Shown here: positions 8,260 through 45,421 of the stretch, one piece after another
Layout of the letters: each line of letters opens with the position of its first letter
How positions within the stretch are numbered: the stretch's first letter is position 1
From: Desulfurococcales archaeon
GTDB lineage: Archaea > Thermoproteota > Thermoprotei_A > Sulfolobales > NBVN01
Direction of reading: 5' to 3'
Assembly (NCBI GenBank): GCA_027064885.1
Contig: JAMOOZ010000117.1
Span: 1 to 47,086 of the forward strand
DNA length: 47,086 bases
The notes under the pieces: model-generated
The model's input: only the letters and a program-made list of their open reading frames with translations
Database searches by the model: none
Told to the model about the DNA's origin: nothing
Position numbers and translations under genes: made by a program

Positions 8260-8787
8260 CTAGCTTACCGTTACCTTCCACTGTATGTACAGCTGGTCTC
8301 CACTGTAGAGTGTTACAGTGCTGAAGGTCTTCCTGGCTAGCATGTTTCCGCCGCTGGCCGCGTCGAAGATTCCGCTCTCGCATATCTGCCAGGTTGCGTT
8401 GGCTGTGAACGTTGCCTCCCAGACGGCGGTGTCGTTTGTTACGTTGGTTGTCGTCCTTGATACTGAGGCCTGCTGCCTTGCAACCTCGTGGCCTAGGGCT
8501 GTGTCGCTGGCCGACTCTGCCGCGCAGCTGCCTGGGTTGGAGGCGCTGCCGTCGCCTATCGCTATGTACCTGAACGGGGTTGTTACCACGCCGTTTATGA
8601 GGCCTGCCACCTGGGCCTTGCCAACGTTTGTTATCACGTTAGGCAGGACTCGGCGGAGTATCGTCCTGCCGCTCCTATCCCTTACCTCGATTATGACTGT
8701 ACCCTTGAGCCTTATCACCTGGCTGTCTGGCCTTCGCAGTCTCGGTATGCGCATGGGAGACCCCCATTCCAGGTAACTAGTTTTCAC
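8260..8787 (-). CDS. Tail-fibre N-terminal/collar-like beta protein (DUF3751-like)
   Basis: NVITNVG..YIAIGDG..DTALGHEVAR..ESGIFD..GNMLARKTF pattern typical of phage fibre-attachment domains; alternative start 8754. Confidence 0.7.
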   Translation of the reverse strand: MKTSYLEWGSPMRIPRLRRPDSQVIRLKGTVIIEVRDRSGRTILRRVLPNVITNVGKAQVAGLINGVVTTPFRYIAIGDGSASNPGSCAAESASDTALGHEVARQQASVSRTTTNVTNDTAVWEATFTANATWQICESGIFDAASGGNMLARKTFSTVTLYSGDQLYIQWKVTVS

Positions 8788-8825: not shown

Positions 8826-9482
8826 GTGCCCGAGCTGACGATAGTACACAGTATAGAGCTCGTAGACCATGTGGGTGTGCTGCCGACGTTCAACGAGTCT
8901 GTGGGGCTCAGCGACCAGCTGAAGATTATCCTGCCAAAGATAAGCCTGCCAGACGAGGTTGTTTACGCGTTGAAGAATAGCAAGGCTATGAACTACTGGC
9001 CGCTGATGCAGGCTATGAGCATTGAGGTGCAGAAGATAAGGAGGGTCAATGCTGGGGACTACGTGTTGTCCGAGGATATAAACCAGCCCAAGAAGGCTGT
9101 AGTGGCCGTCCTAGACTATGTTGACGAGGCTTTGAGATGGGAGGGCAGCAGTGTCAGGGATGATGTGAGTTCGTTGAGGTACGACGCTTACGGGGAGCTG
9201 TACATGGTGCCAGAGGCTAGGGCTGGCGAGATATATGATGTGGAGTGGCATAACGCGCTGGTGAGGGCTATCAAGAAGGTTGTCGACATTGCCCGCAAGT
9301 GGTTCCCGCTGAGGCTGGGGCCAGAGGCTAAGAGCCTGCTACGGGAGAAGAAGCCTGAAGACCTTATCGAGCCAGACGACCATAATAACAAGCGGGATGT
9401 GCTTGAGAACGCTGTCAACACGCTGATGCAGCTGGGAGGCTTCATAGTCGTGCTCATGAGGCAGCCTGGGGGCGGTAGGTGA
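8826..9482 (+). CDS. Probable virion/fibre-associated protein with three short repeats
   Basis: AGDYVLSEDIN, AGEIYDVEWHN, PEDLIEPDDHN; stop overlaps start of the 1100-aa gene. Confidence 0.6.
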   Translation: MPELTIVHSIELVDHVGVLPTFNESVGLSDQLKIILPKISLPDEVVYALKNSKAMNYWPLMQAMSIEVQKIRRVNAGDYVLSEDINQPKKAVVAVLDYVDEALRWEGSSVRDDVSSLRYDAYGELYMVPEARAGEIYDVEWHNALVRAIKKVVDIARKWFPLRLGPEAKSLLREKKPEDLIEPDDHNNKRDVLENAVNTLMQLGGFIVVLMRQPGGGR

Positions 9483-12400
9483 TGGCGTTCCTGCTTGGCG
9501 GCGGGCCGTTCATAGCAGCTAGGAGGCTCACAATACCACTGTACCTGACGCTGATAGGCGGGGACTGCTCTGCCCAGGGGCCCAGCCTGGTCTACGTCAA
9601 CCCCTACGCCTACGATTCTGGCTCGTGCGTGATTACGAGCGAGGACACCTTCTACAGTATCAAGATGTGGACTGTTACCATGGATGTTATAGCGTTGTCC
9701 CCCAGCGCCACGCTGACCATCAGGCTCCAGGTGGTAGACCCAGATACTGGCAGTGTGGTGCACGAGGAGTCCAAGACCATCTATGGTAGTGAGGTGCTGA
9801 ACCAGTGGGTGAAGGTTAAGGTTGAGATGAGCGTTGACGAGCCCATAGAGGCTGGCAGGCTTAGGCTGAGGGTTGAGTGGAGCGGCGGGCCTTTCCAGGC
9901 CAAGATACCGAACCTTGGCACGGTTACAGACCTGTGGTCTGGCTATAACCCAGTTGATGAGGCCTATGAGATTCCGCCGCTGTACGAGCACGTTAACGGC
10001 TATGTTGAGACTAGGAGGTACGCCTACCTGCTGCCTGGCAGGAACTACTATGTGCTGCCGTGCGAGATAACCGTGGACGACGAGAAGTATGCGCTTATAC
10101 GCGTGGACAACCCTCATGGTGTGCTTCTCGATGAGGCTGAGACCACCAGGCAGTGCGCCGCCAAGCAGGCTGTGGAGGTGTACAGTGAGCTTCCAGTAAA
10201 GCCGTACTATGCTCTTGAGAAGCCAGCCAAGCTTGCAAGGGTTGCCGAGGCCCTGCAAGCCCTATTGGCCACTGTTATAACGTTGTCGGCTATTCTGAGC
10301 AGGTTCGTGCTCGTGGTGCGGGAGAAGGTTAGCGCCAGGGTTAGGACTCCAGTCCTGCTGAGAGAGGTTGTTAACGCTGCAATAGACAGTGTTATGATGG
10401 TGTTTAAGGCTGGAAGGTTCCTAGCCGAGAAGGTGAGCTTGGCCGAGGCGTTTGCAAGGGTTGTCTACCGTAGCGCTGTGAGCAGGTTTACGCTGGTTGT
10501 AAGTGAGGCCGTGTCCGCTGTAAGGCGTAAGATTGCATCGCTGAGTGAGAGTGTAGCGTTCCAGCTCGCTTCGAGGCTGGTGGCCTACCTGCCAGTTGTG
10601 CTGGCTGAGACGCTGTCGCTTGTTGAGGCGTTTGCCAGGAAGGTGTATAGGCGGTTCACCAGCACGTTCACCCTCGTTGTCAGCGAGGCCGTGTCCGCCG
10701 TTAGACGGGTTATTGCAAGGGTTGAGGAGAGCCTGGCATTCCAGATGGCTTCGAGGCTTGCAAGGGCTTTCGCCGAGAAGCTGGCTGAGACCCTACAGCT
10801 GGCGGAGGCCTTCTCAAGGGTTGTCTACAGGTTCCTAACGAGCTCTTTCACGCTAGTGGTGTCTGAGACTGTAACGGCTGTGAGGAGGGTTATTGCAAGG
10901 GTTGAGGAGTCGGTTAGCGCCGTGCTACAGTCTACTATAGGTAGAGCATTCGGCAGGGTGCTGGCCGATACTGTGAGCTTGGCCGAGGCTGCCGCTGCTA
11001 GGGTGTACAGGTTCATAACCAGCGCTATGACTCTTGTGGTTAGCGAGGCTGTAACGGCTGTAAGGCGTGTCGCTGCAAGGCTGAGTGAGAGCCTGGCATT
11101 CCAGCTCGCCTCAACTGTGGCTAGGAGGCTGGCTAGGAGCCTCGCTGACGTGCTGTCGCTGGCCGACTATCTTGCCAGAAGGGTGTACAGGTTCCTATCG
11201 AGCAGCATGACGCTGGTAGTGTCCGAGACCGTGTCCGCCGTTAGGAGGGCTATCGCATCCCTATCAGAGTCCGTTGCGGCTAGCCTCGCGACAAGCATCT
11301 CCAAGCGTGTTAGGGCTGCGTTTGTGGAGGCTGCAAGCCTTGCAGACGCTATCGTTGCAAGGCTTAGGGCTGGGAGGCTCCTAGCTGAGACCATAGCGCT
11401 TGCTGAGGCGTTCGCTAGGAGGGTTTACAGGTTCCTAACTAGCACGTTCACGCTCGTTGTATCAGAGGCCGTGAGTACTGTTAGGAGGGTGCTGGCCAGG
11501 GTCAGCGAGACGGTTAGCGCCACGTTGTCGACCACCATTGGTAAGAGGGTGAGCACGCTCCTGGCCGAGGCCGTGTCTCTGGCTGACGCTATAGCGAGGA
11601 GGCTTAGGGCTAGCAGGGTGCTGGCCGAGGCTGCAAGCCTTGCAGACCAGCTCTATAGGAGGGTGAAGAGGGCTGCCACGAGCACTTTCGTGCTCGTTGT
11701 GAGCGAGACGGTTAGCGCTGTGCACAGGGTACTTGCGAGGGTAAGCGAGACACTATCCAGCACCCTAGCGGCCACGATAAGCAAGCTTGTGAGGAGGAGT
11801 GCAGCTGAATCCGCCAGCCTAACAGACGTGGTGCACGGAAGCTACCACGGGGACACGGCGCACAGCGATGTGGCGCACAGCGACAGCGAGTTCAGCGACA
11901 CTACACACTCGGACGCGGCTTTCTCGGACACAGCGTTCTCTAACACGCCATTCAGCGACACAGCCTTCTCAGACCAGGCGTTCAGCGATGTGGCATTCTC
12001 GAATGTGCCGTTCAGCAATGTGCCATTCAGCAATCAAGAGCACGCTGACATACATAGTGATAGGGCTTTCAGCGACCAGCCCCACAGCGACGGGCACGGG
12101 GACACAGCCCACAGCGATGGGGCTCACAGCAACGTCTCGTTCAGCAATGTGCCATTCAGCAACACACCATTCTCCAACTCGCCTTTCAGCAACGTGCCAT
12201 TCAGCGATGAGGCCCACTATGACAGCCACAGCGATGTGGCGCACAGCGATGAGAGCGGCATAGGCTTCAGCAACGTGTCTCACTCGGACTCGTGGTATGA
12301 TAGCTTCCCAATATTCGTAGACCACAGCGACCAGGCGCACAGCGACAGCCCTGGAGCACACTCTGATGTGAGCCACAGCGATACGCACACCAACATAGCG

Positions 12401-12781
12401 CACAGCGATGCCACACACAGCGATAGCAGCCACAGCGATACTAGACACAGCGATGTGAGCCATAGCGATAGTAGGCATAGCGATGTGCCGCACACCGACT
12501 ACCCGCACACAGACTGGTTCAGCAACGTATCACACTCTGATGTAACGCACGGTGATAGCTATGGAGACCAGCCTCACAGCGATGCAGCGTTCAGCGACCA
12601 GACCCACTCGGATGTCAGCCACAGCGACAAGGCTCACAGCGACCAGGCGCACAGCGACTCAACGCATAGTGATGTGAGCCATAGCGACCAGGCACACTCC
12701 GACGTTGCCCATAGCGATGCAGCGTTCTCGGACACGGCGCACAGCGATGTGGCGCATGCTGATAGGGCTGGCAGCTTCTAG
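9479..12781 (+). CDS. 1100-aa repetitive fibre-like protein with C-terminal (H/F)-S-(D/N) repeats; candidate radical SAM substrate
   Basis: N-terminal beta-rich domain, central 60/80-aa repeats, C-terminal 62 aromatic-X-D/N motifs; rSAM gene begins 39 nt downstream. Confidence 0.85.
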   Translation: MMAFLLGGGPFIAARRLTIPLYLTLIGGDCSAQGPSLVYVNPYAYDSGSCVITSEDTFYSIKMWTVTMDVIALSPSATLTIRLQVVDPDTGSVVHEESKTIYGSEVLNQWVKVKVEMSVDEPIEAGRLRLRVEWSGGPFQAKIPNLGTVTDLWSGYNPVDEAYEIPPLYEHVNGYVETRRYAYLLPGRNYYVLPCEITVDDEKYALIRVDNPHGVLLDEAETTRQCAAKQAVEVYSELPVKPYYALEKPAKLARVAEALQALLATVITLSAILSRFVLVVREKVSARVRTPVLLREVVNAAIDSVMMVFKAGRFLAEKVSLAEAFARVVYRSAVSRFTLVVSEAVSAVRRKIASLSESVAFQLASRLVAYLPVVLAETLSLVEAFARKVYRRFTSTFTLVVSEAVSAVRRVIARVEESLAFQMASRLARAFAEKLAETLQLAEAFSRVVYRFLTSSFTLVVSETVTAVRRVIARVEESVSAVLQSTIGRAFGRVLADTVSLAEAAAARVYRFITSAMTLVVSEAVTAVRRVAARLSESLAFQLASTVARRLARSLADVLSLADYLARRVYRFLSSSMTLVVSETVSAVRRAIASLSESVAASLATSISKRVRAAFVEAASLADAIVARLRAGRLLAETIALAEAFARRVYRFLTSTFTLVVSEAVSTVRRVLARVSETVSATLSTTIGKRVSTLLAEAVSLADAIARRLRASRVLAEAASLADQLYRRVKRAATSTFVLVVSETVSAVHRVLARVSETLSSTLAATISKLVRRSAAESASLTDVVHGSYHGDTAHSDVAHSDSEFSDTTHSDAAFSDTAFSNTPFSDTAFSDQAFSDVAFSNVPFSNVPFSNQEHADIHSDRAFSDQPHSDGHGDTAHSDGAHSNVSFSNVPFSNTPFSNSPFSNVPFSDEAHYDSHSDVAHSDESGIGFSNVSHSDSWYDSFPIFVDHSDQAHSDSPGAHSDVSHSDTHTNIAHSDATHSDSSHSDTRHSDVSHSDSRHSDVPHTDYPHTDWFSNVSHSDVTHGDSYGDQPHSDAAFSDQTHSDVSHSDKAHSDQAHSDSTHSDVSHSDQAHSDVAHSDAAFSDTAHSDVAHADRAGSF
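10304..11830 (+). repeat. Coding tandem repeats, 8 copies of (F/M)(T/V)LVV(S/R)E.V.A
   Basis: Copies near 10304, 10487, 10667, 10847, 11027, 11207, 11447, 11687 (spacings 183, 180 x4, 240 x2 nt). Confidence 0.9.
11846..12778 (+). repeat. Coding pentapeptide repeat array (H/F)S(D/N)xx, 62 units
   Basis: 15-nt period e.g. CACAGCGAT/TTCAGCAAT; units counted from the translation. Confidence 0.95.
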
Positions 12782-12820
12782 CCCCCACACCTTATAGTTT
12801 TTCCATGTGTAAGACCCGCC

Positions 12821-14029
12821 TTGAGGGTGGAGCGTTTGACTCTACTGGTTATGCCCACGTACAGCTGCCACCTTGCATGTGCCTACTGTTTCGAGAGCAC
12901 TATAGGGTGGAGGATGAAGGTCAAGCTTGACTATGACCTTGACAGGATGATGGAGGCTATAGCCAGGATTAACAGGTTGCAGCCCCACCAGGAGGCCGTT
13001 CTGCATGGCGGGGAGCCGCTGCTCATGCCACTACGAGACCTTGAGAGGCTGATAGCGTTCATCAGAAACCTGGGGCTCAGCGTTAGCGTGCAGAGCAGCT
13101 GCTCGATACTGAGCGAGGAGCACATCAAGCTGTTCAAAAGGTACAACGTGAGGGTCGGCTGTAGCGCTGACGGCCCGCCAGAGCTCAACGTGTTGAGGGG
13201 CTTCTGGCCTAGGGGGAAGCCGCTGGAGGAGCTTAACAGGAGGTACCGTGAGAAGGTGCAGAGGAACATTGAGATACTGGCTGAGGAGAAGCTGCTGGGT
13301 GGCGTGCTCACCATTGTGCATAGGGCTAACGCTGGCGACGTGGAGAAGCTGCGTAAGCTGGTGGGCTGGATCAACAAGTTGTATGAGCTTGGTAGCAGGT
13401 ATGGTAGGCTGAACCCTATGTACGCTGTTACCCCGTGGAGTAAGCCGTATGAGCTTAGCGTAGACGAGTTGTACAGGGCTTACGTGTGGATGTGGGAGAA
13501 CTTCTTCCAGGATAGGCCAGAGCTTGACTGGAGCCCGTACCACGACCTTGTGGCTGTGCTGCTGGGGCAGGAGAGGAGGGCTTTGTGCTGGTTTAACGGG
13601 TGCGGCTTTTACGACGCGCCAGTGTGGACTGTCGGGCCTAAGGGGGAGGTGTTGAGCTGCGATAGGACGCTGGGGGCTGGGATGTGGCTTAGGGCTAGGC
13701 CCCTGCCGAAGACCCAGCTTCTCGATAGGAAGATACGGGCTATAGCGCTGTGCCAGACGGAGCTTGCGGGGGACAGGTTCTGCCACCTCCACAAGGGTGG
13801 GTGCCCTGCCGAGGCCCTGGGCGGGGACTGGAGGAGGCCTAGCAGGTTCTGGAGGCTTTGGAGCAGGCTGCTAGAGTATTTTGAGCGTAGGCTGAAGGCT
13901 TTGGCTCCTTGGCTTAAGCTTGCTAGCGAGGTGCCCGACAGGCTGGAGTACATTGAGATGGTGAGTAGGGGGTGCGTGTGGAACCCGTTCACGGGCAGGT
14001 ACGACTGCCCAAAGGGCGGTAGGGGGTGA
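12821..14029 (+). CDS. Radical SAM enzyme with SPASM/twitch-like C-terminal domain (peptide/protein maturase type)
   Basis: CHLACAYC (CxxxCxxC), HGGEPLL, SADGP, C-terminal CWFNGC..GEVLSC..GGCP. Confidence 0.92.
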   Translation: MRVERLTLLVMPTYSCHLACAYCFESTIGWRMKVKLDYDLDRMMEAIARINRLQPHQEAVLHGGEPLLMPLRDLERLIAFIRNLGLSVSVQSSCSILSEEHIKLFKRYNVRVGCSADGPPELNVLRGFWPRGKPLEELNRRYREKVQRNIEILAEEKLLGGVLTIVHRANAGDVEKLRKLVGWINKLYELGSRYGRLNPMYAVTPWSKPYELSVDELYRAYVWMWENFFQDRPELDWSPYHDLVAVLLGQERRALCWFNGCGFYDAPVWTVGPKGEVLSCDRTLGAGMWLRARPLPKTQLLDRKIRAIALCQTELAGDRFCHLHKGGCPAEALGGDWRRPSRFWRLWSRLLEYFERRLKALAPWLKLASEVPDRLEYIEMVSRGCVWNPFTGRYDCPKGGRG

Positions 14030-14030
14030 T

Positions 14031-14867
14031 GTGGTCGTGAGGCATGTTAGGCTTCCACCTTTCAACGCGGTAGTGTTCAGGGGCGATGATGGGGGTAGGC
14101 TGGCTGAGAGGTGGGAGCCGCTGCTGGCCAGGATTGAGAGGGCGGTGTTCGAGGCCGAGTTCGGTATTGTAGGTGAGTTCGGGAGGCGCTGTAACACTGT
14201 GCTGCTGCCTCCTGGCGGTGGGCAGCAGACCCTTGAGCTGATACGGAGGTATGGGCTGCTGTTCTACCCTATAACGCAGGTTAGAGCGTACCAGGGCTAT
14301 GCTCACACCCATGAGAAGCCTAGGCATCCTGGGGAGGCGGCATTGTTCGGCGTGGCGTGCATCGAGATAGATGACGCGTTGAGGTTCGCCGAGGCCTACC
14401 AGAGGGGCGACCACTACACTCAAGGCAAGCTGCTGGGCTACCCAGAGTGCTGCATCAAGGCGTTCATCGAGGATTGGAACGCTGGCTACTACAGCCCCGT
14501 GATACAGGAGGTTAGGAGGACTCCTGGCTGCCACGACTACGAGTGCAGGATTGACCCGCTGCTCAACCCCACGCTACGCTATATCGGCGTGAAGGCGATA
14601 CCGTTCTGGCCCCACAACCTGGTGTGCAGGGAGGCGCACAGGTGGGCCGAGCACTTCATCGACGTGGTCAGGAGGATAGACAAGAAGGCCTACAAGGCGC
14701 TCCTGGAGCTGCTGGCCGAGCCCGTTGAGTTCAGCCAGGTTAACGGTATCATAGAGGTGAGGGTGGGGAGCCCGCCGTGGATGCTGATTATCAGCCAGGG
14801 CTATAGCGATGAGACGATACGGGTGCGCCTCATCCCAATGTACGACCCAGTTGAGGAGTATGGGTGA
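14031..14867 (+). CDS. Conserved-type archaeal protein with GxLLGYPxCC motif (DUF483-like)
   Basis: GKLLGYPECCIKAF and FWPHNLVC motifs; in operon with the rSAM gene. Confidence 0.6.
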   Translation: MVVRHVRLPPFNAVVFRGDDGGRLAERWEPLLARIERAVFEAEFGIVGEFGRRCNTVLLPPGGGQQTLELIRRYGLLFYPITQVRAYQGYAHTHEKPRHPGEAALFGVACIEIDDALRFAEAYQRGDHYTQGKLLGYPECCIKAFIEDWNAGYYSPVIQEVRRTPGCHDYECRIDPLLNPTLRYIGVKAIPFWPHNLVCREAHRWAEHFIDVVRRIDKKAYKALLELLAEPVEFSQVNGIIEVRVGSPPWMLIISQGYSDETIRVRLIPMYDPVEEYG

Positions 14868-14870
14868 TGT

Positions 14871-15647
14871 GTGGTGCCGCGTAGGGGTGTGCCAGAGCCC
14901 AAGGTGGGGGAGGTCGACGACCCCACGTTCAACAGGATATACGAGATTGTTGCCGAGAGGCTGCCCTACGACGCTAGGATACTACTGCTGAGCCACACGG
15001 GCTCCAGGGCCTACGGGTGGAGCTGGTACAACTTCGACTACGACATCCACGGCGTGTTCGCCTGTAAGGGGTGGTGGGACTGGGTTCACATAGGGGTTGA
15101 GGGCTTCGACATCAACATGTACGAGCTGGGCCACCTAATATACATGGATTTGTACTATAAGCATGGAGACACAATTATCAACATGGGCAACCCAATCTAT
15201 CTTGACCCAGAGTTTCCCTATGACGAGATGCTGGACTTGATTAGCACGGACTTCTGGCATGATAGCATGGTTGACTATCAGATTGCGAGGCTACAGACGT
15301 ACTTCAGCGCTAGGACGGCGCTGCACACGTATAGGGTTATGATTGTGCCGATGTACTTCATGAGGTTCGGTAGGTTCGAGCACAACATATTCAGGGCTAT
15401 GATTGAGCTCGGCCTAGACCTTGAGGGCCCCTATATCTGCCGTGAGGCGTACCTTGCACAGTACAAGATAACCAGCAGGAACCCCGTGCTCAGCGAGGAG
15501 GAGCGAGAGCTTGTGTGGAGGGAGATACGGATGCTCCGCGAGATGTTTGCCGAGTACAAGAAGAAGTACCATAAGCCTTGGAGTAGGGAGAAGTGGGAGC
15601 GGTTCATTGAGCTTGTGAGGCCGCTGTGGGCTGAGTGTGAGTACTAA
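14871..15647 (+). CDS. Pol-beta-superfamily nucleotidyltransferase
   Basis: GSRAYG...DYDIHGVF (GS..DxD) with a later D in FDINMYEL. Confidence 0.8.
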   Translation: MVPRRGVPEPKVGEVDDPTFNRIYEIVAERLPYDARILLLSHTGSRAYGWSWYNFDYDIHGVFACKGWWDWVHIGVEGFDINMYELGHLIYMDLYYKHGDTIINMGNPIYLDPEFPYDEMLDLISTDFWHDSMVDYQIARLQTYFSARTALHTYRVMIVPMYFMRFGRFEHNIFRAMIELGLDLEGPYICREAYLAQYKITSRNPVLSEEERELVWREIRMLREMFAEYKKKYHKPWSREKWERFIELVRPLWAECEY

Positions 15648-15679: not shown

Positions 15680-16450
15680 GTGGAGGGGCGGGCCGTGATA
15701 AGGCATTCCATCCGCGTGAAAGCGGACGTGTGGATAAACGGTAGGTTCGTCGGCGCCAACAGCCCGACAGAGACGCTTAAGGATGACATTGTAACGGAGA
15801 TGGGCACGTGCGGCAAGAAGGTAACCATTATCGATAAGATATGCCTCGTGGACGACCAGGGCACTGAGAGGGACTGCACTACAGACCTCAGCTACGAAGA
15901 CCACAGCCCTAACTATGTGCTTGTTAAGGGCAGCATACAAGCCACAGCCTCATACACTGTAGCCAAGATTAGGGCTTACAGTGTTGACAAGCTGTACTTC
16001 GAGACCGACTACAGTGTAGCGCTTAACCAGGGGGACGTGCTAGACGTAACGTACCAGATTAGCGCGACTGTAAGCTGCTCGCTTAGCGGCAGCGTTACAC
16101 AGCTGGAATGCGACCCTAGCGGGTACATCCAGAACCTTCTAAAAGCGTTCATAGGTGCTGATAGGGCTGTACTGTGCCTCAAGAGGGCCCTGCTGATGTA
16201 CTATAGTGAGACTGAGGGCAAGTATGTTAGCGGGCTGGCTATAACTCTGAGCATAAGCTATGACACGGCTCAAAACAAGGTTACGGGGAGCGGGAGCGGC
16301 ACCAGCACGCTAGACTTTGAGGCGGAGTACCTAGAGTACGATAATGGTGCTAATCCGCCAGTACCGTTGATAGAGCAGCATTTCAGCCAGACACTGCCAA
16401 TATATAGGGACACCGTGGTCAATGTTAGCTACGAGTTTACTGTTCAGTAA
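15680..16450 (+). CDS. Beta-rich probable virion protein, two related halves resembling 8260..8787
   Basis: Halves end VALNQGDVLDVTYQI and LPIYRDTVVNVSYEF, cf. VTLYSGDQLYIQWKV. Confidence 0.55.
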   Translation: MEGRAVIRHSIRVKADVWINGRFVGANSPTETLKDDIVTEMGTCGKKVTIIDKICLVDDQGTERDCTTDLSYEDHSPNYVLVKGSIQATASYTVAKIRAYSVDKLYFETDYSVALNQGDVLDVTYQISATVSCSLSGSVTQLECDPSGYIQNLLKAFIGADRAVLCLKRALLMYYSETEGKYVSGLAITLSISYDTAQNKVTGSGSGTSTLDFEAEYLEYDNGANPPVPLIEQHFSQTLPIYRDTVVNVSYEFTVQ

Positions 16451-18077: not shown

Positions 18078-18506
18078 TTATGCTCCTAGCTCTGATAGGA
18101 GCTGGGTTAGCGTCTTTGCCCTGTCAAGCTTCTCCTTGTAGAACACGTACCAGACGCCGTTTCTTAGTTCGACCCGCTCGGCCTCGCTCCAGGGGAGTAC
18201 CCTGAAGTCATCCTCGCCCCTCACCTTGACCGCTAGGTAGACTTGGGCTCCAGCCCTCCTGGCATAGTTCATTATGCCCGTGTACTTGTGCTCCTCTATG
18301 TAGATGCTTCGTGGCTTGTCGCGGAGCTTCACCTCGAACATTAGTATCCTGCCAGCCTTGAGTGCTACTATGTCTGGTACGGCCTCGCTGCTCCTGGCGC
18401 CGCTCGCTGGTGCCCTCATGACGCTCCAGCCAGCCTTTTCCAGGCGTTTCTTCAGGCTGTACTCTGCCGTCTTGCCGATGAGTCTTGCTCTGTAGCCGCC
18501 TCTCAC
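18078..18506 (-). CDS. hjc: Archaeal Holliday junction resolvase
   Basis: G..AE..L..L...GW.V.RAPASG...PDIVA...FEVK signature. Confidence 0.92.
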   Translation of the reverse strand: MRGGYRARLIGKTAEYSLKKRLEKAGWSVMRAPASGARSSEAVPDIVALKAGRILMFEVKLRDKPRSIYIEEHKYTGIMNYARRAGAQVYLAVKVRGEDDFRVLPWSEAERVELRNGVWYVFYKEKLDRAKTLTQLLSELGA

Positions 18507-24318: not shown

Positions 24319-25563
24319 TTAGTCGTACCTTGTCCTCTCATCCCTCTGGTATAGCTCGCGTAGCAGGCTCACTTGCTCCTCCTTGGCCTCGGCACCCTTT
24401 TCTAGTGCCCTCGCTATTCTCTCCAAGAGCTCGTAGAGCTTGCTGTAGTCTCTGCGGATTGCCTCGGCTACCACCTGGTCGCTCACCAGGTGCGCCGCGC
24501 TCGGCAGCCTACCCTCTATCCTCCTGAACACCTCAACAGCAACCCTCATGGCCTCGCTGTAGTCGTTGAACCTGACGCTGACGTAGTTCTCGTGGCCTAC
24601 GACGCGGCCCTGCGGCGCCATCCTCGCTATTATGTCCCTGACTATCTCCTCGGCTGTTGCTGGGTAGTCGCTGAGCCAATACTTTATCACGCGGACGTCG
24701 TAGCCCTCTACACTCTTGGTGCGTGGGTTGTATCCTGGAACCACTGCTACGATGAAGTGTTTACGAGCCCTCATTGCCAGCTGCTCCATAGTCTTCGGCA
24801 CCCACATACTGGTGGTCGCTGGGTCTAGCCTGCTGAAGTCTACGAGTAGCGCTATGTCGCCAACCCGCTCTACGTGTACCTGGCCAGCTATCCTCTCTGG
24901 CGGATACTCCACGTTCACCTGCTCCAGCATGGATACACCGTACTCGCTGAGCATCCTAGCCAGCTCCGCCTGGTCGCTGGCATTTACCAGGCCTGGCTGC
25001 CTCACCAGTATGTCTAGCTTGTTAGCTAGTGGCATGTAGCGCCTCTCTAGCTCCTCCCTCGGCACCACCTTCGCTATCGCTGGGTCGCGGTCGGCCACGA
25101 TGCCAACAATTGCCAGCTCCTTGGCAGTGTCCTCGCTGAACAACTCCAGCGCCACAGCCATCTGCACGGCGTCAGCAGTTATGATGGGAGTTATGCCACG
25201 CTGTATCATAGCCTCCACATGAGGTACCGAAGTCTCGTGGTGGTCGTAATACCTTACTGGCTGCGGCAGCTTAGCCAGCGCCTCTATGAACGCTGCTGGC
25301 GCCTGCACGTTTACTGGTATGTCTATGACCTCGGTGCCCCTAACGCTCTCGTACTGCTCTGCTATCTTGGCGAAGGTCTCTGCTGCGGCTCTCGGGGTGG
25401 TGTCTGGGAACTTAGCGTAGCCTAGCACGTTTTCGCCGCGCTGCCTCAGTATTCTAAGCCTGGCCGCCAGGGTTGCAACGCCGTGCGCGTCTGGGCCCGC
25501 TATTACGATTCTATCGTAGGCCTGACGCTTGGGGGTTTGGGTGTATGCGAGGGCTAGGGCCAC
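24319..25563 (-). CDS. DHH-family phosphoesterase-like protein
   Basis: DAHG, VIDIP, YYDHH, VADRD and GH motifs; own TATA (TTTATATA) and GAGGTGA SD. Confidence 0.7.
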   Translation of the reverse strand: MALALAYTQTPKRQAYDRIVIAGPDAHGVATLAARLRILRQRGENVLGYAKFPDTTPRAAAETFAKIAEQYESVRGTEVIDIPVNVQAPAAFIEALAKLPQPVRYYDHHETSVPHVEAMIQRGITPIITADAVQMAVALELFSEDTAKELAIVGIVADRDPAIAKVVPREELERRYMPLANKLDILVRQPGLVNASDQAELARMLSEYGVSMLEQVNVEYPPERIAGQVHVERVGDIALLVDFSRLDPATTSMWVPKTMEQLAMRARKHFIVAVVPGYNPRTKSVEGYDVRVIKYWLSDYPATAEEIVRDIIARMAPQGRVVGHENYVSVRFNDYSEAMRVAVEVFRRIEGRLPSAAHLVSDQVVAEAIRRDYSKLYELLERIARALEKGAEAKEEQVSLLRELYQRDERTRYD

Positions 25564-25789
25564 GACCTCTCACCTCGGGGTCTTGGTCTGGGTTCTGGCC
25601 GTGTAGTGTACTTGTGTACGGAGCTATATAAATGTTTGTACACATGGCCTCTTGTGTATAGGCATATATATCGGCCCGTGTGCAGGAGCAGCGTCCGCAA
25701 CGTTTAACGTTACGCTACCCTTTCCCGTCTGGGCCCTGTACCTTATAGCTGCCGCTCCTAGCCAACGCCCCCTTCGAGGTGGGGCGGCT

Positions 25790-26845
25790 GTGAAGATTGC
25801 ACTCGTAACCTCCAGGGCCACCTCGCTCATGGAGGTTGCCAGGGCCATAGCCTACGTCGCCCGTAGGCGTGGCTTGCAGCCAGTCATACTGGAGTACGCC
25901 CCCTCTCCAGTCGACATGAAGCGGATGGCTGGCATGGTCATAGTTGTCATGACGATGAACCCGCTGCTCTCCAGGAGCTGGTTCCTCGCAGCCAGGGACT
26001 ACAACAAGGAGAACATACCGTCATGGATATACACCACCACCGAGGGCAGGCTCCCCAAACGCTACGTCAAACCGTGGATGCAGCGAGACCTAGTCTTCAT
26101 AGCCAACAGCCAGTACACCCGCGAGAAGCTTGAGGAGGCAGGGCTAACCGTTGTCGACGTAGTCCCACACGGGATCGTTATGAGTGAGGTGGAGCAGGCA
26201 GTCAAGCTTGCAGAGACCGCCAGAAAACACCTTGAGTCTAGGCTGGGGAGCGGAGTCTACTACGTAACAGTGGCCAGCAGCCACCGCCGCAAGGGCCACG
26301 AGCTCTACGCCAGAGCCATAATGCTGGCCCGCCAGGAGTGCGAGGAGTGCAAGTTCTACATTCTAACAGGGCAGGAGGCAACAGTGTACTACAGCGACAT
26401 CGAAGGAGTCTACGTCGACCCAAGGTTCGGCCAGCTCTCAAGAATGGAGGTTCTAGCCCTCATGGCGGCAGCGGACTGGTACGTGCAGCCCAGCCTCGCA
26501 GAGGGCTTCGGCCTACCAGTGCTTGAGGCCCAGGCAGTCGGAACCCCATGCATACACCCAGCCTACCCGCCGCTCACAGAGCACAGCCACAAGGACAACC
26601 TGTGGGTGCCCTACGAGCAGGTCATATACGACCCCATGGGCGAGGGTATAGAGTACGAGCTGCACATCTACAGGGCCGACGAGATGGCAAAAACGATACT
26701 CAAAGCCTACGACATAACCGTAAACAAGAAGGACGAGTACAAGGCACTGTCCGAGAGGGTCAGGGAGCACGCCAAGCAGTACGACGCGGAGAAGGTCTAC
26801 GGACGCTTATTGGACTCTATCTCGGAAGTAGAGGAACTGGGGTGA
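25790..26845 (+). CDS. GT4 (GT-B) glycosyltransferase
   Basis: IANS..T, VVPHG, RKG, PSLAEGFGLPVLEA; GTG at 25790 after GAGGTGG. Confidence 0.92.
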   Translation: MKIALVTSRATSLMEVARAIAYVARRRGLQPVILEYAPSPVDMKRMAGMVIVVMTMNPLLSRSWFLAARDYNKENIPSWIYTTTEGRLPKRYVKPWMQRDLVFIANSQYTREKLEEAGLTVVDVVPHGIVMSEVEQAVKLAETARKHLESRLGSGVYYVTVASSHRRKGHELYARAIMLARQECEECKFYILTGQEATVYYSDIEGVYVDPRFGQLSRMEVLALMAAADWYVQPSLAEGFGLPVLEAQAVGTPCIHPAYPPLTEHSHKDNLWVPYEQVIYDPMGEGIEYELHIYRADEMAKTILKAYDITVNKKDEYKALSERVREHAKQYDAEKVYGRLLDSISEVEELG

Positions 26846-26847
26846 GC

Positions 26848-28203
26848 ATGCCACTCGGCAGCACACTAGACTTCGAGAGCCTGATAAGGGAGCTTAGGAG
26901 GCAGAAGCAGAAGTACCACGCCAAGGTACTCTCCTCCAACGCTCTTTTCGCAAACTGGCTCAGAAGCATGGACATAGGCGACTTCATGCCCTGGTACGTC
27001 TGGCTCATGATACCCGAGTTCACCTATTCTGGCATAGCCTACAGCCTCCTCTTCGACATACCGCCATACGAGATAGTGCCAGTCAACTGGGACTTCAACG
27101 TCGAACTGCCAGACGTGGACGAGTGGCTCCAGGGAATACTCGCGGACGTCTACAAGATAGACTGGAGCACCATCTACGAGTGGCTCAGCGACATAGAGAA
27201 GCTGGTCAAGGAGACTGTTGAAGAGCAGTACCAGGAGAGCATGATACAGACGAGGCCCAGGAAGGCGGTCTACGGTAAGACACGCTACAACAGGAGCTAC
27301 CTAGACCCCCCAGCGGTTCGCGAGGCCATACGCTCAACCATGTTCAAACTATGGGTGGAAAGGTATACTCTGAAACAGCTGAGAGAAGACCATGACAAGA
27401 TGGCTAGGGAGCTACAGCTCAGCGACGGCTTCAAGATACTGCTATTCCACAAGATAAGCCAGGTCATCTACGCCCAGCCGTCAGCCCTGATACTAGGCTA
27501 CGGGGTTCTAGGCAGAAGCTACCTGGGCAGGAAGGTTAGGCCAGAGCCAGAGGCAGAGTTCAAGATGTTCAACTACGACCTGGAGCTCATAGAGTGGCTG
27601 GGCAACACCCTAGACCACGCCAAGGTAGGCCTAGTCCTCGGCATAACACCGCTAGGCTACGGCTACCTCCTACCCCCACGCACCGTGTTCAAGAAGCCCA
27701 TAATCCCAAAGCAGCTCCAGCCGCTCACAGAGTTCGTCAGGAGGAGGGGCACACACCAGATACACAATATAACATGGAACCCGTTCACCATAGGCAACTA
27801 CAACCGCCCCGAGGAGCAGCGCGACTACCGTAAGAGCGAGCGAGCAGACCAGTACATGAGCCTCCAGCTCATACGCTACCAGATAGAGCGCATAGTAGAC
27901 CCCATCATACGCCGCTACGAGACAAACCCAGTCAAAATACGCATGTACAAGAGCGCAGTCCTCCAGCTGGTCAGCCTGCCAGCAAAGCGGCACAGGTGGG
28001 GCTACGAAGCCTTCAAAGCAATGAGCGAGGATGAGCTGGTCTCGTGGTGGAAGGAGCACTGGAAGTCCCAGGGCTTAAAAGAAGACGTCTTAGACCAGCT
28101 CTATAACGCGGTAAAGAGGTGGCTTCCCGAATGGAGGAGGCTCAAACTCCAGCTGGGCAGACGGGTCAGGGAGGCCAGGTACCGCCTAGCACACCTCAGG
28201 TAG
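26848..28203 (+). CDS. Probable minor virion protein (rudivirus-like structural module)
   Basis: ATG at 26848; Tyr/Gly motifs KAVYGKTRY, LGYGVLG, LGYGYL; position between GT and giant protein. Confidence 0.55.
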   Translation: MPLGSTLDFESLIRELRRQKQKYHAKVLSSNALFANWLRSMDIGDFMPWYVWLMIPEFTYSGIAYSLLFDIPPYEIVPVNWDFNVELPDVDEWLQGILADVYKIDWSTIYEWLSDIEKLVKETVEEQYQESMIQTRPRKAVYGKTRYNRSYLDPPAVREAIRSTMFKLWVERYTLKQLREDHDKMARELQLSDGFKILLFHKISQVIYAQPSALILGYGVLGRSYLGRKVRPEPEAEFKMFNYDLELIEWLGNTLDHAKVGLVLGITPLGYGYLLPPRTVFKKPIIPKQLQPLTEFVRRRGTHQIHNITWNPFTIGNYNRPEEQRDYRKSERADQYMSLQLIRYQIERIVDPIIRRYETNPVKIRMYKSAVLQLVSLPAKRHRWGYEAFKAMSEDELVSWWKEHWKSQGLKEDVLDQLYNAVKRWLPEWRRLKLQLGRRVREARYRLAHLR

Positions 28204-28518: not shown

Positions 28519-28836
28519 ATGCCCAGCGCACCATCCGCCCCACCAGGACAGAGCAAGATTGTCCAGATACCACCCATCACAGTTATGGTGGACGACTGCC
28601 TAGCCCACATTCTCGAAGTCGCCCAGCTCGACTTCCCCTGGGGCACCGAGTACGCAGTCTCAGTCATGGTGGAATGCAAGGGTATACGCAGCAGGGTCTT
28701 CAACCTCTCTGTGAGGAACGAGAAGGAGCTAAAGGCCAAGCTGATAGCCGAGGTTACAAAGTTCAAGCTAATGCGCCTCGTACTCGGCGACGAGACGACA
28801 AGAGACGTGGTAGGGGGTGTCCCACTTGTCAGATGA
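28519..28836 (+). CDS. Hypothetical protein
   Basis: 105-aa ORF after a TTTTTAAA box. Confidence 0.75.
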   Translation: MPSAPSAPPGQSKIVQIPPITVMVDDCLAHILEVAQLDFPWGTEYAVSVMVECKGIRSRVFNLSVRNEKELKAKLIAEVTKFKLMRLVLGDETTRDVVGGVPLVR

Positions 28837-37023: not shown

Positions 37024-37368
37024 TTGAGCGAGTCCCCCTCACTGGTCGAGGAGATTAGAAGGGCTAGGGAGGAGATAAGCAAGGCTATAGAGGAGGCTAG
37101 GAAGGCTGCTGAGGAGGCCTCCAAGGCTATTGAGCCAGCGCTGGAGGAGCTTAGGAAGGCCGCAGAGGAGCTGGTAAAGATAGGCGAGTCCGCCAGGATG
37201 CCCCCACCGCCAAAGCCTCCAGAAACAACACCGTCAAGCGGCGCTACAGCAACTGGATCAAAAACACGTACAGGTTCCAGGAGGGCTTCTGGCGCGGCCC
37301 AGCAGCAGGCGCCGCCCACAAGACCTGTCCCGCTTAGCGAGCTTGAGAAGAGGAGGTCTAGGCGCTAG
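37024..37368 (+). CDS. Coiled-coil/low-complexity protein
   Basis: EEARKAAEE repeats; GGAGGAG SD. Confidence 0.7.
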   Translation: MSESPSLVEEIRRAREEISKAIEEARKAAEEASKAIEPALEELRKAAEELVKIGESARMPPPPKPPETTPSSGATATGSKTRTGSRRASGAAQQQAPPTRPVPLSELEKRRSRR

Positions 37369-45251: not shown

Positions 45252-45421
45252 GTTTTTAACCTCGCACGGCCACGACGGCCCCTTTTAAGGCCTAGTTCTG
45301 CTCTAAGCTTAGCACTACAACAGTTAGAGTGCCGCCAGCCGCTCCACTTTTATCCAAGCGGTATTACACCTTCTGTACACGGCCCAACGGCCAACGTACA
45401 CATGGTCGGAGGTGTGTATGC

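What the first reader, a model, noticed from the sequence alone, without database searches (positions are those of the whole stretch)
9479..15647. Virus-encoded radical SAM maturase next to a fibre-like protein carrying 62 aromatic-X-Asp/Asn motifs
Seen: the 1100-aa protein ends in 62 H/F/W/Y-x-D/N triplets (mostly HSD, FSD, FSN). A radical SAM/SPASM-type gene starts 39 nt later, followed in tight tandem by a GYPxCC protein and a nucleotidyltransferase. Established: triceptide-forming rSAM/SPASM enzymes link an aromatic ring at position 1 to the C-beta of residue 3, and His-Xaa-Ser repeat proteins sit next to their rSAM maturases. Those substrates are typically short RiPP precursors in cellular genomes. 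Inference: here the substrate is a large virion structural protein that may receive dozens of three-residue cyclophanes, giving a rigid, heat- and protease-stable receptor-binding needle. I know of no such system described in a virus.
Basis: partly seen in the sequence, partly recalled or inferred. Interest (0 to 1): 0.95.

Follow-up and report, generated by a model that had tools for sequence, protein, structure and literature searches.

The report
Viral fibre repeats with dedicated radical-SAM enzyme
An archaeal virus, and many phages, encode a fibre protein ending in dozens of aromatic-x-Asp/Asn triplets next to a radical SAM enzyme of the peptide-crosslinking kind, which suggests that viruses chemically staple their own receptor-binding fibres.

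Summary
ORF 9479-12781 (1100 aa) ends in 62 [HFWY]-x-[DN] triplets, against 12.8±2.9 in shuffles. A radical SAM gene follows 39 nt later, then a DUF483 (GYPECC) gene and a Pol-beta nucleotidyltransferase.

The linkage between repeats and enzyme holds in both directions:
- From the enzyme: 15 of 22 dereplicated rSAM relatives have a dense triplet protein in the locus, in several gene orders. None of 138 control loci does.
- From the repeats: 17 of 22 IMG/VR contigs with a real triplet array carry this rSAM family beside it. None of 58 pattern-only contigs does.
- 25 of 43 SPASM-type family members carry HxD repeats on their own C-terminus.

Carriers include Thermus phages Cumys, phiMa and phiLo. 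One array sits on a J-like central tail fibre. The enzyme family scores best against DynA, anaerobic sulfatase maturase and cyclophane-forming maturases. It reaches no curated cut-off.

Best reading: a virus-encoded maturase modifies the fibre's triplets, probably by ring-to-C-beta crosslinks between residues 1 and 3. The chemistry is untested. The gene module was noted in print in 2024 and guessed to modify DNA. I found no paper that proposes the fibre as substrate.

The parts
8260..8787 (-). Neighbouring 175-aa tail-collar / gp80-like fibre protein, divergent from the operon
   Evidence: Pfam Gp80 at 1.2e-6 (29.4 bits, cut-off 27) and Phage_tail_fib N-terminal at 0.0028. PHROG 5417 at 9.6e-21 and tail fiber protein phrog_4176 at 1.2e-5. 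The same family lies directly upstream of a distant rSAM relative in L106.
8826..9482 (+). 218-aa ORF overlapping the fibre gene start by 4 nt; function unknown
   Evidence: ORF list. No Pfam or PHROG family. No homologue found in the related loci.
9479..12781 (+). 1100-aa fibre-like protein: N-terminal region, about seven 60-aa repeats, and a C-terminal triplet array
   Evidence: ORF. The 60-aa repeats carry 'TLVVSE' at aa 338, 398, 458, 518, 578 and 658. Its non-repeat part is homologous to the repeat proteins of related loci at 1e-7 to 5e-19. No Pfam family for aa 1-330. All 13 listed population variants are synonymous.
11846..12763 (+). Array of 62 [H/F/W/Y]-x-[D/N] triplets (aa 790-1095), the proposed substrate
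   Evidence: It holds no Cys and no (C/S)x(P/A)xR motif. Pentapeptide_4 scores 30.3 bits, below the cut-off of 38. Only marginal PDB matches to pentapeptide-repeat domains, E 0.06-0.5.
12821..14029 (+). 402-aa radical SAM enzyme of anSME / daropeptide / triceptide-like type with one twitch-like auxiliary-cluster motif
   Evidence: Pfam Radical_SAM at 4.6e-14. C16-x3-C20-x2-C23, the G63-G64-E65 motif, C256, C261-x13-G-x4-C280, and HLHKGGC328 in place of CX2CX5CX3C. NCBIfam best matches are AmcB 2e-18, DynA 7.4e-16, anSME 6.4e-15 and YhhB 8.6e-15, all far below cut-offs. The PDB profile search puts anSME 4k36 first at 2.5e-21 over the full length, then the ChlB rSAM domain at 7.4e-15.
14031..14867 (+). 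278-aa DUF483 protein (GYPECC), a conserved partner of the rSAM
   Evidence: Pfam PF04467 at 1.3e-8, 35.3 bits, cut-off 25. Follows the rSAM in most related loci. Alignment A3: H92, G136-Y137-P138 and C199 are invariant; H94, D127, H128 and C140 are nearly invariant. No PDB sequence relative. Atlas clusters are mostly Uroviricota.
14871..15647 (+). 258-aa Pol-beta-type nucleotidyltransferase (RlaP-like), a module member in the window's clade
   Evidence: S41, G44, D56 and D58 are invariant and S45 is nearly invariant. 11 of 12 members hit RlaP weakly, best 1.9e-5; the window's own protein scores 14.5 bits against a cut-off of 23. The Atlas's nearest clusters are RlaP families. It lies next to the rSAM or the repeat gene in three gene orders.
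15680..16450 (+). 256-aa protein of unknown function, often found near the module
   Evidence: Homologues at 3e-17 to 7e-102 in L010/L097, L090, L091, L092, L096, L101 and L105, on either side of the module and on either strand. No Pfam or PHROG family.

Best explanation
This is a virus-encoded protein-maturation module. The fibre-like protein carries a C-terminal array of aromatic-x-Asp/Asn triplets, and that array is the substrate of the adjacent radical SAM enzyme.

The most likely chemistry is that of the triceptide and daropeptide enzymes. The SAM-derived 5'-deoxyadenosyl radical abstracts a hydrogen from C-beta of the Asp/Asn at position 3. The substrate radical adds to the ring of the His/Phe/Trp/Tyr at position 1. 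The auxiliary Fe-S cluster takes the electron. Each triplet ends as a three-residue macrocycle, 2 Da lighter.

With 62 triplets here, and up to about 140 in relatives, the distal end of the fibre would become a densely stapled rod. DUF483 is an obligate accessory of unknown role; it has a conserved His/Cys set that may be a metal site or a substrate-handling site. The nucleotidyltransferase is a clade-specific extra step.

Shown here: the array, the enzyme class, the conserved two-way linkage, the enzyme-repeat fusions, and purifying selection on all four genes.
Inferred: that the enzyme acts on the array, which atoms are joined, the order of steps, and the effect on the virion.
For: 1. From the enzyme to the repeats. 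Of 22 dereplicated (>=90% identity) rSAM-family clusters other than the window, 15 have an ORF with at least 13 triplets per 100 aa in the locus.
   - In most the repeat ORF lies directly upstream on the same strand.
   - Other orders also occur: NTase between the two genes (L101, L102), convergent after DUF483 (L004), and 4.4 kb away on the other strand (phiLo).
   - Four of the 7 clusters without repeats have at most 119 nt upstream of the rSAM.
   - None of 138 loci with unrelated rSAMs (2.03 Mb) exceeds 8 per 100 aa.
2. From the repeats to the enzyme. A DNA pattern for (HxDxx)x4 in IMG/VR gave 80 listed loci. 22 have a real dense ORF. Of these, 17 have this rSAM family adjacent (HMM E 3e-19 to 3.5e-114) and 11 also have DUF483. 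None of the other 58 loci has either. The 17 loci form 16 new clusters.
3. Enzyme-repeat fusions. 25 of 43 SPASM-type family members carry at least 4 HxD (mostly HGD) in their last 80 residues, against 0.11 per 80 aa elsewhere in the enzymes.
4. The conserved unit is the triplet, not the period or the middle residue. Spacing is 3-9 in relatives. Position 2 is Ser in 687 of 834 triplets of archaeal-type loci. In Thermus phages it is S/G/A/T/L and others.
5. Positions 1 and 3 covary: H-D 440, H-N 64, F/W/Y-N 229, F/W/Y-D 101. The repeats are not independent, so this is only descriptive.
6. Enzyme class. All 61 family members hit DynA (best 1.1e-62), anSME, YhhB, AmcB and GrrM/OscB. The closest solved structure, anSME, acts on whole proteins.
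7. Motif precedents in passages of PMC11002830 and PMC12912966: Trp-Asn/Asp and Phe-Asn (OscB, XncB), Tyr-Asp (YxdB), and His at position 1 (HaaB, YhhB, MicB).
8. The array has no Cys, which rules out thioether chemistries, and no anSME motif.
9. Fibre context.
   - A 1194-aa repeat protein in L245 matches tail fiber (6e-57) and central tail fiber J (2.7e-47).
   - In Cumys the repeat gene follows baseplate and tail-collar genes.
   - 7 of 60 repeat proteins carry Laminin_G_3 lectin domains.
10. All four genes are under purifying selection in another study's samples.
Against: - No chemistry was tested.
- The window's enzyme reaches no curated cut-off of any named maturase (66.6 bits against 425 for AmcB).
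- Its clade lacks the CX2CX5CX3C cysteines, 0 of 18.
- No reference sequences of characterised enzymes were available, so no tree could place the enzyme among them.
- Three rSAM relatives with upstream sequence have no array (L106, L113, L114).
- 5 of 22 arrays have no rSAM in the fetched stretch. L207 has about 9 kb downstream without one.
- Residues i and i+2 face the same side of a beta-strand. Conserved positions 1 and 3, and their covariation, would also fit a purely structural motif such as metal sites and Asn ladders.
- The period-5 part is weakly pentapeptide-like.
- A His-Asp crosslink has no precedent in the passages I read.
- The authors who first noted the module favoured DNA modification, and they report relatives beside deazapurine genes in cyanobacteria.
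- Virion location of the window's protein is inferred from relatives only. Most repeat proteins have no recognisable structural domain: 5 of 9, and most of 60.
Confidence: 0.55

Rival explanations
1. The rSAM does modify the triplet array, but by other radical chemistry than a ring-to-C-beta carbon-carbon bond. Candidates are a C-N or C-O link (as in dynobactin or darobactin), epimerisation of Asp/Asn or His, or oxidation of the Ser at position 2 as anSME does.
For: DynA is the best family-wide match (61 of 61 members, best 1.1e-62) and anSME the best solved structure. Dynobactin contains a Tyr C-beta to His N link (passage of PMC11002830). Ser occupies position 2 in 687 of 834 triplets of archaeal-type loci.
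Against: Position 2 is Gly, Ala, Thr, Leu and others in Thermus-phage arrays, and HGD dominates enzyme tails (161 of the HxD there). Ser therefore cannot be the universal target. There is no (C/S)x(P/A)xR motif. The strict aromatic-plus-Asp/Asn pairing fits a link between 1 and 3 better than a single-residue change.
Confidence: 0.2
2. The array is purely structural: a trimeric needle or beta-helix in which residues 1 and 3 face inward. His plus Asp would bind metal ions, while Phe/Trp plus Asn would form core and ladder layers. This is comparable to the His-x-His iron sites of the T4 long-tail-fibre tip, which I recall from memory and did not check here. The rSAM, DUF483 and NTase would then act on something else, for instance viral DNA, as the 2024 Thermus-phage paper proposed.
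For: H-D and F/W/Y-N covary. Spacing is 5 in 50 of 61 cases, with weak pentapeptide-repeat similarity. The published suggestion is DNA modification, with rSAM + DUF483 next to deazapurine genes in cyanobacteria. DUF483 is fused to methyltransferase domains in one all-viral Atlas cluster.
Against: This reading does not explain the two-way co-occurrence across unrelated phages and several gene orders. It does not explain why the enzymes themselves carry HxD tails. The spacing is irregular in relatives, which argues against a fixed-period fold. The enzyme belongs to the protein/peptide-modifying SPASM branch.
Confidence: 0.17
3. The linkage is only inherited gene order at the end of a tail or fibre gene block. 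The three enzymes would be an unrelated auxiliary or counter-defence cassette.
For: Many archaeal-type loci are related viruses with 37-75% rSAM identity and the same gene order. RlaP-type nucleotidyltransferases are common phage genes.
Against: The link persists where the order differs (L004, L101, L102, phiLo). It persists between bacterial and archaeal viruses that share only about 30% rSAM identity. It also persists when the N-terminal part of the repeat protein differs. Fusions exist. None of 58 and none of 138 control loci show the pairing.
Confidence: 0.06

Closest known systems
Triceptides and their three-residue cyclophane-forming rSAM enzymes (OscB, XncB, MscB, YxdB, HaaB, YhhB, MicB)
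   Same: They use an aromatic-X-X3 motif with a link between residues i and i+2. W-x-N/D, F-x-N and Y-x-D, and His at position 1, are all reported (passages of PMC11002830 and PMC12912966). Several motifs can occur per substrate. The enzymes are SPASM-branch rSAMs, and the window's best NCBIfam matches include AmcB, YhhB, GrrM/OscB, FxsB and XyeB.
   Different: No curated cut-off is reached. The substrate is a 1100-aa structural-type protein with 62 motifs, not a short leader-core peptide. The passage says all characterised triceptides are cleaved before the first motif, and no protease gene is seen here. The system is virus-encoded. DUF483 and NTase partners occur instead of RiPP tailoring and export genes. 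The window's clade lacks the second-cluster cysteines. H-x-D is not among the motifs in the passages read.
Daropeptide maturases DynA / DarE
   Same: DynA is the best family-wide NCBIfam match, hit by 61 of 61 members with best E 1.1e-62. Dynobactin joins Trp to Asn C-beta and His to Tyr C-beta (passage).
   Different: Scores are below the cut-off of 450 bits; the window's own enzyme scores 58.1 bits. Daropeptides are small antibiotics with a single core, not repeat arrays on virion proteins.
Anaerobic sulfatase-maturating enzyme (anSME)
   Same: It is the closest solved structure by profile (4k36, 2.5e-21, aligned over positions 2-360 of the profile). It has no N-terminal RiPP-recognition domain, and the window's enzyme likewise starts directly with the rSAM core. 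From general knowledge, it modifies a full-length protein at a short local motif.
   Different: Its target motif (C/S)x(P/A)xR is absent from the fibre. The cut-offs are not reached: 55.2 bits against 441.
'rSAM module' of Thermus phages Cumys and phiMa (Viruses 2024, PMC11437467)
   Same: The genes are the same: rSAM 32-33% and DUF483 32% identical to the window's. They are preceded by Cumys_13, which holds 58 dense triplets, almost all HxD.
   Different: In the passages I read the authors describe two proteins of unknown function, do not mention the repeats, and suggest DNA modification. There is no NTase in the Thermus phages. Their enzymes keep the full SPASM motif and carry HxD tails.
His-Xaa-Ser system (HxsA-D)
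   Same: A repeat protein with His-containing triplets is paired with rSAM maturases. HxsB appears among the matches at 6.7e-8.
   Different: The score is 31.7 bits against a cut-off of 370. The motif here is H-x-D (38 copies), not H-x-S (1 copy). No HxsC or HxsD counterparts were seen.

Membership tests
Radical SAM superfamily (PF04055) | Pfam model above its gathering score | tested here: met
   53.4 bits against a cut-off of 29.5, E 4.6e-14.
Radical SAM superfamily (PF04055) | CX3CX2C cluster motif and GGE SAM-binding motif | tested here: met
   C16, C20 and C23 are present. G63-G64-E65 are invariant in A1 and A2. CX3CX2C is found in 58 of 61 family members.
SPASM subfamily | Seven-Cys motif CX9-15GX4C ... 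CX2CX5CX3C ... C (as recalled) | tested here: not met
   The first half is present (C261-x13-G-x4-C280; 60 of 61 members). CX2CX5CX3C is absent in the window and in all 18 of its clade, replaced by HxHxGGC in 17 of 18. It is present in 42 of 61 of the wider family. No Pfam SPASM hit was listed. The window's enzyme is better called twitch-like.
Triceptide maturases (NCBIfam AmcB, YhhB, GrrM/OscB, FxsB, XyeB) | Score at or above the curated equivalog or subfamily cut-off | tested here: not met
   AmcB 66.6 against 425, YhhB 54.5 against 445, GrrM/OscB 42.8 against 310, FxsB 39.6 against 370, XyeB 25.5 against 450 bits.
Triceptide maturases (NCBIfam AmcB, YhhB, GrrM/OscB, FxsB, XyeB) | Adjacent substrate with aromatic-X-X3 motifs | tested here: met
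   62 triplets lie 39 nt upstream. The linkage is conserved.
Triceptide maturases (NCBIfam AmcB, YhhB, GrrM/OscB, FxsB, XyeB) | Product carries ring-to-C-beta links (-2 Da per motif) | not testable with these tools
   This needs co-expression followed by MS and NMR.
Anaerobic sulfatase maturase | Curated cut-off reached, and a (C/S)x(P/A)xR target | tested here: not met
   55.2 against 441 and 43.9 against 349 bits. No such motif in the fibre.
Pentapeptide repeat proteins (PF13599 / PF00805) | Pfam gathering score | tested here: not met
   Pentapeptide_4 scores 30.3 bits against 38. PDB matches have E 0.06-0.5. Spacing is 5 in 50 of 61 cases here but irregular in relatives.
DUF483 (PF04467) | Pfam gathering score | tested here: met
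   35.3 bits against 25. The precomputed Pfam column lists PF04467 for 8 of 10 homologues.
Pol-beta nucleotidyltransferases, RlaP family (PF10127) | Pfam gathering score; G[SG]...DxD motif | tested here: inconclusive
   The window's protein scores 14.5 bits against 23. 11 of 12 relatives hit weakly, best 1.9e-5. The motif residues S41, G44, D56 and D58 are invariant and S45 is nearly invariant.
His-Xaa-Ser system | HxsB cut-off and H-x-S repeats | tested here: not met
   31.7 bits against 370. HxS occurs once in the array, HxD 38 times.
Phage tail fibre / host-specificity proteins | Homology of the repeat-bearing protein to annotated fibre families | tested here: inconclusive
   The window's protein has no PHROG and no informative Pfam hit. 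Its relative L245 matches tail fiber at 6e-57 and central tail fiber J at 2.7e-47. L174 matches a virion structural protein and L185 a tail fiber weakly. 5 of 9 tested have no hit.

The most novel reading that the evidence does not exclude
Viruses of both bacteria and archaea use RiPP-type radical chemistry to build their particles. A virus-encoded rSAM would install tens to more than a hundred three-residue macrocycles, including a previously undescribed His-to-Asp link, along the distal end of a receptor-binding fibre. This would be the first covalently 'stapled' virion protein of this kind and by far the most heavily modified rSAM substrate known. DUF483 would be a new substrate-handling partner. 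The HxD tails on many enzymes would be built-in substrate or docking segments.
Probability: 0.4. Interest if true: 0.95.

Novelty: new variant of a known kind. Interest (0 to 1): 0.88.

Why it matters
If the enzyme acts on the array, several things follow:
- rSAM crosslinking would extend from small secreted peptides to large structural proteins of viruses.
- It would give a function to DUF483, which is widespread in phages.
- It would give a function to a protein family with at least 116 distinct 50%-identity clusters of large proteins bearing C-terminal H-x-D arrays.
- It would add a new way of stabilising or tuning phage receptor-binding fibres.

The system is directly testable. Three cultured phages of the harmless thermophile Thermus thermophilus HB8 carry it. 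All known cultured carriers come from hot springs, and the window's DNA occurs in a hydrothermal-vent run. The habitats of the IMG/VR carriers were not examined.

Tried and rejected
Searches and tools that led nowhere:
- DNA similarity of 9479-15647 to GenBank phages: no match.
- tblastn of the fibre's first 780 aa and of ORF 26548-28203 against phages: no match.
- PHROGs and Pfam on 20 further window ORFs found no capsid, portal or terminase, so the virus type stays open.
- No terminal repeats were found and no tRNA.
- PDB sequence searches for DUF483 and the NTase gave nothing meaningful, E 0.44 or worse.
- The Atlas structure search for DUF483 returned only DUF483 clusters and sub-0.5 TM matches to methyltransferases.
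There is no model of the array, DUF483 or the enzyme, and no verdict on rSAM-DUF483 binding.
- Expression: no RNA holder was listed.

Readings rejected:
- Thioether chemistry, because there is no Cys in the array.
- An anSME-type target.
- A recent DNA-level repeat expansion.
- A host core gene: the rSAM family was not found in 60 relatives of the MAG at E<=1e-20, and there is one copy in the MAG itself.

Literature:
- Ten full-text searches found no paper that links this rSAM to fibre repeats.
- The hit on phage N4 was irrelevant.
- The JACS 2022 triceptide-landscape paper is not held. Most subscription journals and all supplements were out of reach, so earlier description cannot be excluded.

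Correction to my own notebook: entry 3 says 13 reverse-test loci have DUF483. The output shows 11.

Full report
WHAT IS THERE.
The window is one whole 47,086-nt contig of a 2.0-Mb metagenome-assembled genome. On the + strand lies a tight gene row:
- a 218-aa ORF at 8826-9482, overlapping the next gene by 4 nt;
- an 1100-aa ORF at 9479-12781;
- after a 39-nt gap, a 402-aa radical SAM gene at 12821-14029;
- after a 1-nt gap, a 278-aa DUF483 gene at 14031-14867;
- after a 3-nt gap, a 258-aa nucleotidyltransferase at 14871-15647;
- after a 32-nt gap, a 256-aa ORF at 15680-16450.

The 1100-aa protein has an N-terminal part without a recognisable family. It then has about seven 60-aa repeats. From aa 790 to 1095 it has 62 [HFWY]-x-[DN] triplets: HSD 30, FSN 10, FSD 9. 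Fifty of the 61 spacings are 5 residues. Shuffles of the same residues give 12.8±2.9 triplets, with a maximum of 25 in 2000.

The array is old and is kept by selection on the protein. Of 50 fifteen-nucleotide units, 46 are distinct, and both Ser codon families are used. In contigs from another study, one of which spans 11500-15647 without gaps, the 13 listed variants in the fibre gene are all synonymous. So are the 8 in DUF483 and effectively all 10 in the rSAM. The NTase has 5 synonymous variants of 8. These are 40 of 296 variants; the rest were not shown.

THE ENZYMES.
The rSAM has the following features:
- C16-x3-C20-x2-C23 and the GGE motif;
- C256 and C261-x13-G-x4-C280;
- HLHKGGC328 where relatives have CX2CX5CX3C.

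Its clade of 18 sequences lacks that second motif entirely, while 42 of 61 members of the wider family keep it. There is no N-terminal recognition domain; the core starts at about residue 7.

NCBIfam ranks AmcB, DynA, anSME, YhhB, DarE, GrrM/OscB and FxsB highest, all far below their cut-offs. Across all 61 family members, DynA (best 1.1e-62), anSME, TIGR04083, YhhB, AmcB and GrrM/OscB are each hit by 61 of 61. The closest solved structure by profile is anSME, over the full length at 2.5e-21. Next come the cyclophane synthase ChlB (rSAM domain), CteB and SkfB. The enzyme therefore belongs to the protein/peptide-modifying SPASM/twitch branch but to no named family.

DUF483 passes its Pfam cut-off. 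It has an invariant or nearly invariant His/Cys/Asp set: H92, H94, D127, H128, GYP-x-C140 and C199. It has no solved relative and is mostly a phage family in the Atlas.

The NTase has the Pol-beta G-S...D-x-D signature and weak RlaP similarity.

THE LINKAGE, TESTED BOTH WAYS.
From the enzyme. tblastn found the rSAM in only three GenBank phages, Thermus phages Cumys, phiMa and phiLo. In Cumys the gene order is baseplate genes, tail-collar fibre, a hypothetical gene, Cumys_13, rSAM, DUF483. Cumys_13 is full of H-x-D triplets at irregular spacing.

Scans of viral, genome and metagenome collections with an alignment of the 18 closest homologues gave 30 family loci in 22 clusters, plus 138 loci with unrelated rSAMs that serve as controls.
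- Fifteen of the 22 clusters have an ORF with at least 13 triplets per 100 aa.
- Of the seven without, four have at most 119 nt upstream of the rSAM. Three (L106, L113, L114) have sequence there but no array.
- No control locus exceeds 8 per 100 aa.
- The gene order varies: repeat-rSAM-DUF483-NTase; repeat-NTase-rSAM-DUF483 (L101, L102); rSAM-DUF483 with the repeat gene convergent (L004); and repeat genes 4.4 kb away on the other strand (phiLo).

From the repeats.
- 22 hold a real dense ORF, and 17 of these have this rSAM family next to it. Eleven also have DUF483 and one has the NTase.
- None of the other 58 loci has either gene.
- The 17 loci form 16 clusters, none shared with the first set.
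- Of the five arrays without an rSAM, L171 is cut at the locus edge and L203 and L204 have little flank. L207 has about 9 kb downstream without one.

Fusions. 25 of 43 SPASM-type family members end in at least four H-x-D triplets, mostly HGD, against a background of 0.11 per 80 aa. None of the 18 in the window's clade does.

WHAT IS CONSERVED IN THE ARRAYS.
The triplet is conserved, not the period. Spacings of 3, 4, 5, 6 and 8 are all common in relatives, with runs such as consecutive triplets.

Position 2 is Ser in 687 of 834 triplets of the archaeal-type loci. In the Thermus phages it is S 42, G 31, A 20, T 18, L 15 and others, and in enzyme tails it is Gly.

Positions 1 and 3 covary. His goes with Asp (440 against 64 with Asn). 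Phe/Trp/Tyr go with Asn (229 against 101 with Asp). The repeats and loci are related, so this is a description, not a test.

A phmmer search of 1.84 billion representatives with the array found 381 proteins at E<=1e-3.
- Of the best 150, 116 have at least 13 triplets per 100 aa.
- Their median length is about 740 aa.
- The array reaches the C-terminus in 91 of the 116.
These are large proteins, not short precursors.

IS IT A VIRION FIBRE?
The evidence is indirect.
- The window has a tail-collar / gp80-like gene next door and a 2451-aa tape-measure-like ORF.
- It also has an archaeal Holliday-junction resolvase, a TFIIB-like gene, and a gene shared with Sulfolobales Beppu filamentous virus 3.
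- No capsid or terminase gene was recognised.
- Among relatives, L245's repeat protein is a J-like central tail fibre at 6e-57 and 2.7e-47. L174 and L185 hit structural and fibre families more weakly, L192 hit only a family of unknown function, and five of nine had no hit.
- Seven of 60 repeat proteins carry Laminin_G_3 lectin domains, and one carries a tip-attachment-protein J Ig domain.
- In L004 the repeat gene ends a block that includes a 970-aa lectin-type protein.

HOW IT MOST LIKELY WORKS.
The enzyme class, the two-way linkage and the fusions make the array the most likely substrate. Passages of a review report C-C links between residues i and i+2 for Trp-Asn/Asp and Phe-Asn (OscB, XncB), Tyr-Asp (YxdB), and His at position 1 (HaaB, YhhB). 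A 2026 paper shows YSK, HAS and FTK cyclophanes followed by ADP-ribosylation of the cyclophane His. That is a precedent for a nucleotide-type second step, though by a different enzyme class than the NTase here.

The triplet repertoire of these viral arrays (H/F/W/Y at 1, D/N at 3, free position 2) fits that pattern. The absence of Cys excludes thioether chemistries. I therefore favour ring-to-C-beta crosslinks in each triplet, which remains an inference.

Alternatives are other radical chemistry on the same array, or a purely structural array (metal sites, Asn ladders, a pentapeptide-like helix) with the enzymes acting elsewhere, as the 2024 paper guessed. The structural reading accounts for the covariation and the period of 5. 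It does not account for the co-occurrence or the fusions.

NOVELTY.
The module was noted in Cumys and phiMa and in prophages in 2024. It was described there as rSAM + DUF483 + one unknown protein, with DNA modification as the guess (passages only). My ten searches found nothing that links it to fibre repeats or to peptide crosslinking. Subscription journals and supplements were not searchable.

I rate it a new variant of a known kind. The radical chemistry is familiar. What is new is the substrate class (large virion-type proteins with tens to more than a hundred motifs), the viral setting across bacterial and archaeal viruses, the partners (DUF483, NTase), and possibly a new His-Asp link.

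LIMITS.
- No chemistry and no structure models were obtained.
- No reference sequences of characterised maturases were available for a tree.
- The loci are of unequal length and many are cut.
- Relatedness among loci inflates simple counts.

Noticed in passing
L004:8978-11032 (+): The rSAM of this IMG/VR tailed-phage contig is 684 aa because a LAGLIDADG/Hom_end intein sits inside the CX3CX2C motif. The extein reads C-x3-C-x2, then the intein, ending in HN and followed by Cys. Splicing would restore the cluster-binding motif.
   Followed up: partly
rSAM family proteins P0021-P0062; also L185, L211, L245, L246 and others: Many enzymes of the family end in H-G-D repeats, often closing with motifs like PHGDHTD or HGDHWD. 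Whether these tails are self-substrates or docking segments is unknown.
   Followed up: partly
L106:9070-9992, L111:1297-2644, L115:1018-1389: A distant rSAM subgroup (25-27% identity, full SPASM motif) has no triplet array. It sits between tail-collar-like fibre genes, and the ORFs downstream of the rSAM in L111 carry clustered W-C-N / W-x-N motifs. These may be a minimal form of the same enzyme-fibre pairing.
   Followed up: no
window 28817-36172 (+): A 2451-aa ORF gives strong matches to many tape-measure-protein PHROGs (for example phrog_58 at 2.7e-59) and to coiled-coil Pfams. Its role in an apparently archaeal virus with no recognised capsid or terminase gene is unexplained.
   Followed up: no
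window 24319-25563 (-): This 414-aa ORF is 25% identical over 96% of its length to a hypothetical protein of Sulfolobales Beppu filamentous virus 3. It was the only GenBank virus match among the four non-module window queries sent to tblastn.
   Followed up: no
window 18078-18506 (-), 45329-46426 (+), 25652-26845 and 40406-41464 (+), 37365-38330 (-): The contig also holds an archaeal-type Holliday-junction resolvase, a TFIIB-repeat protein, two GT4 glycosyltransferases and a Memo-like protein. This gene content is typical of crenarchaeal viruses or mobile elements.
   Followed up: no
window 14871 and 14874: In one other-study run (X2) the first two GTG codons of the NTase gene read ATG, so the annotated start is plausible but variable.
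   Followed up: no
L095:6305-8845, L108:4047-6587, L110:3-3350 (+): Directly upstream of the triplet-array gene lies a long open frame rich in Asn/His/Lys ('HNN' repeats, 847-1116 aa). I did not check whether it is a real low-complexity protein or an off-frame reading.
   Followed up: no
window 12782-12820: The 39-nt spacer between the fibre and rSAM genes contains TTATAG followed by a run of five T. It could be an internal archaeal promoter or a partial terminator that sets the fibre-to-enzyme ratio. This was not tested.
   Followed up: no
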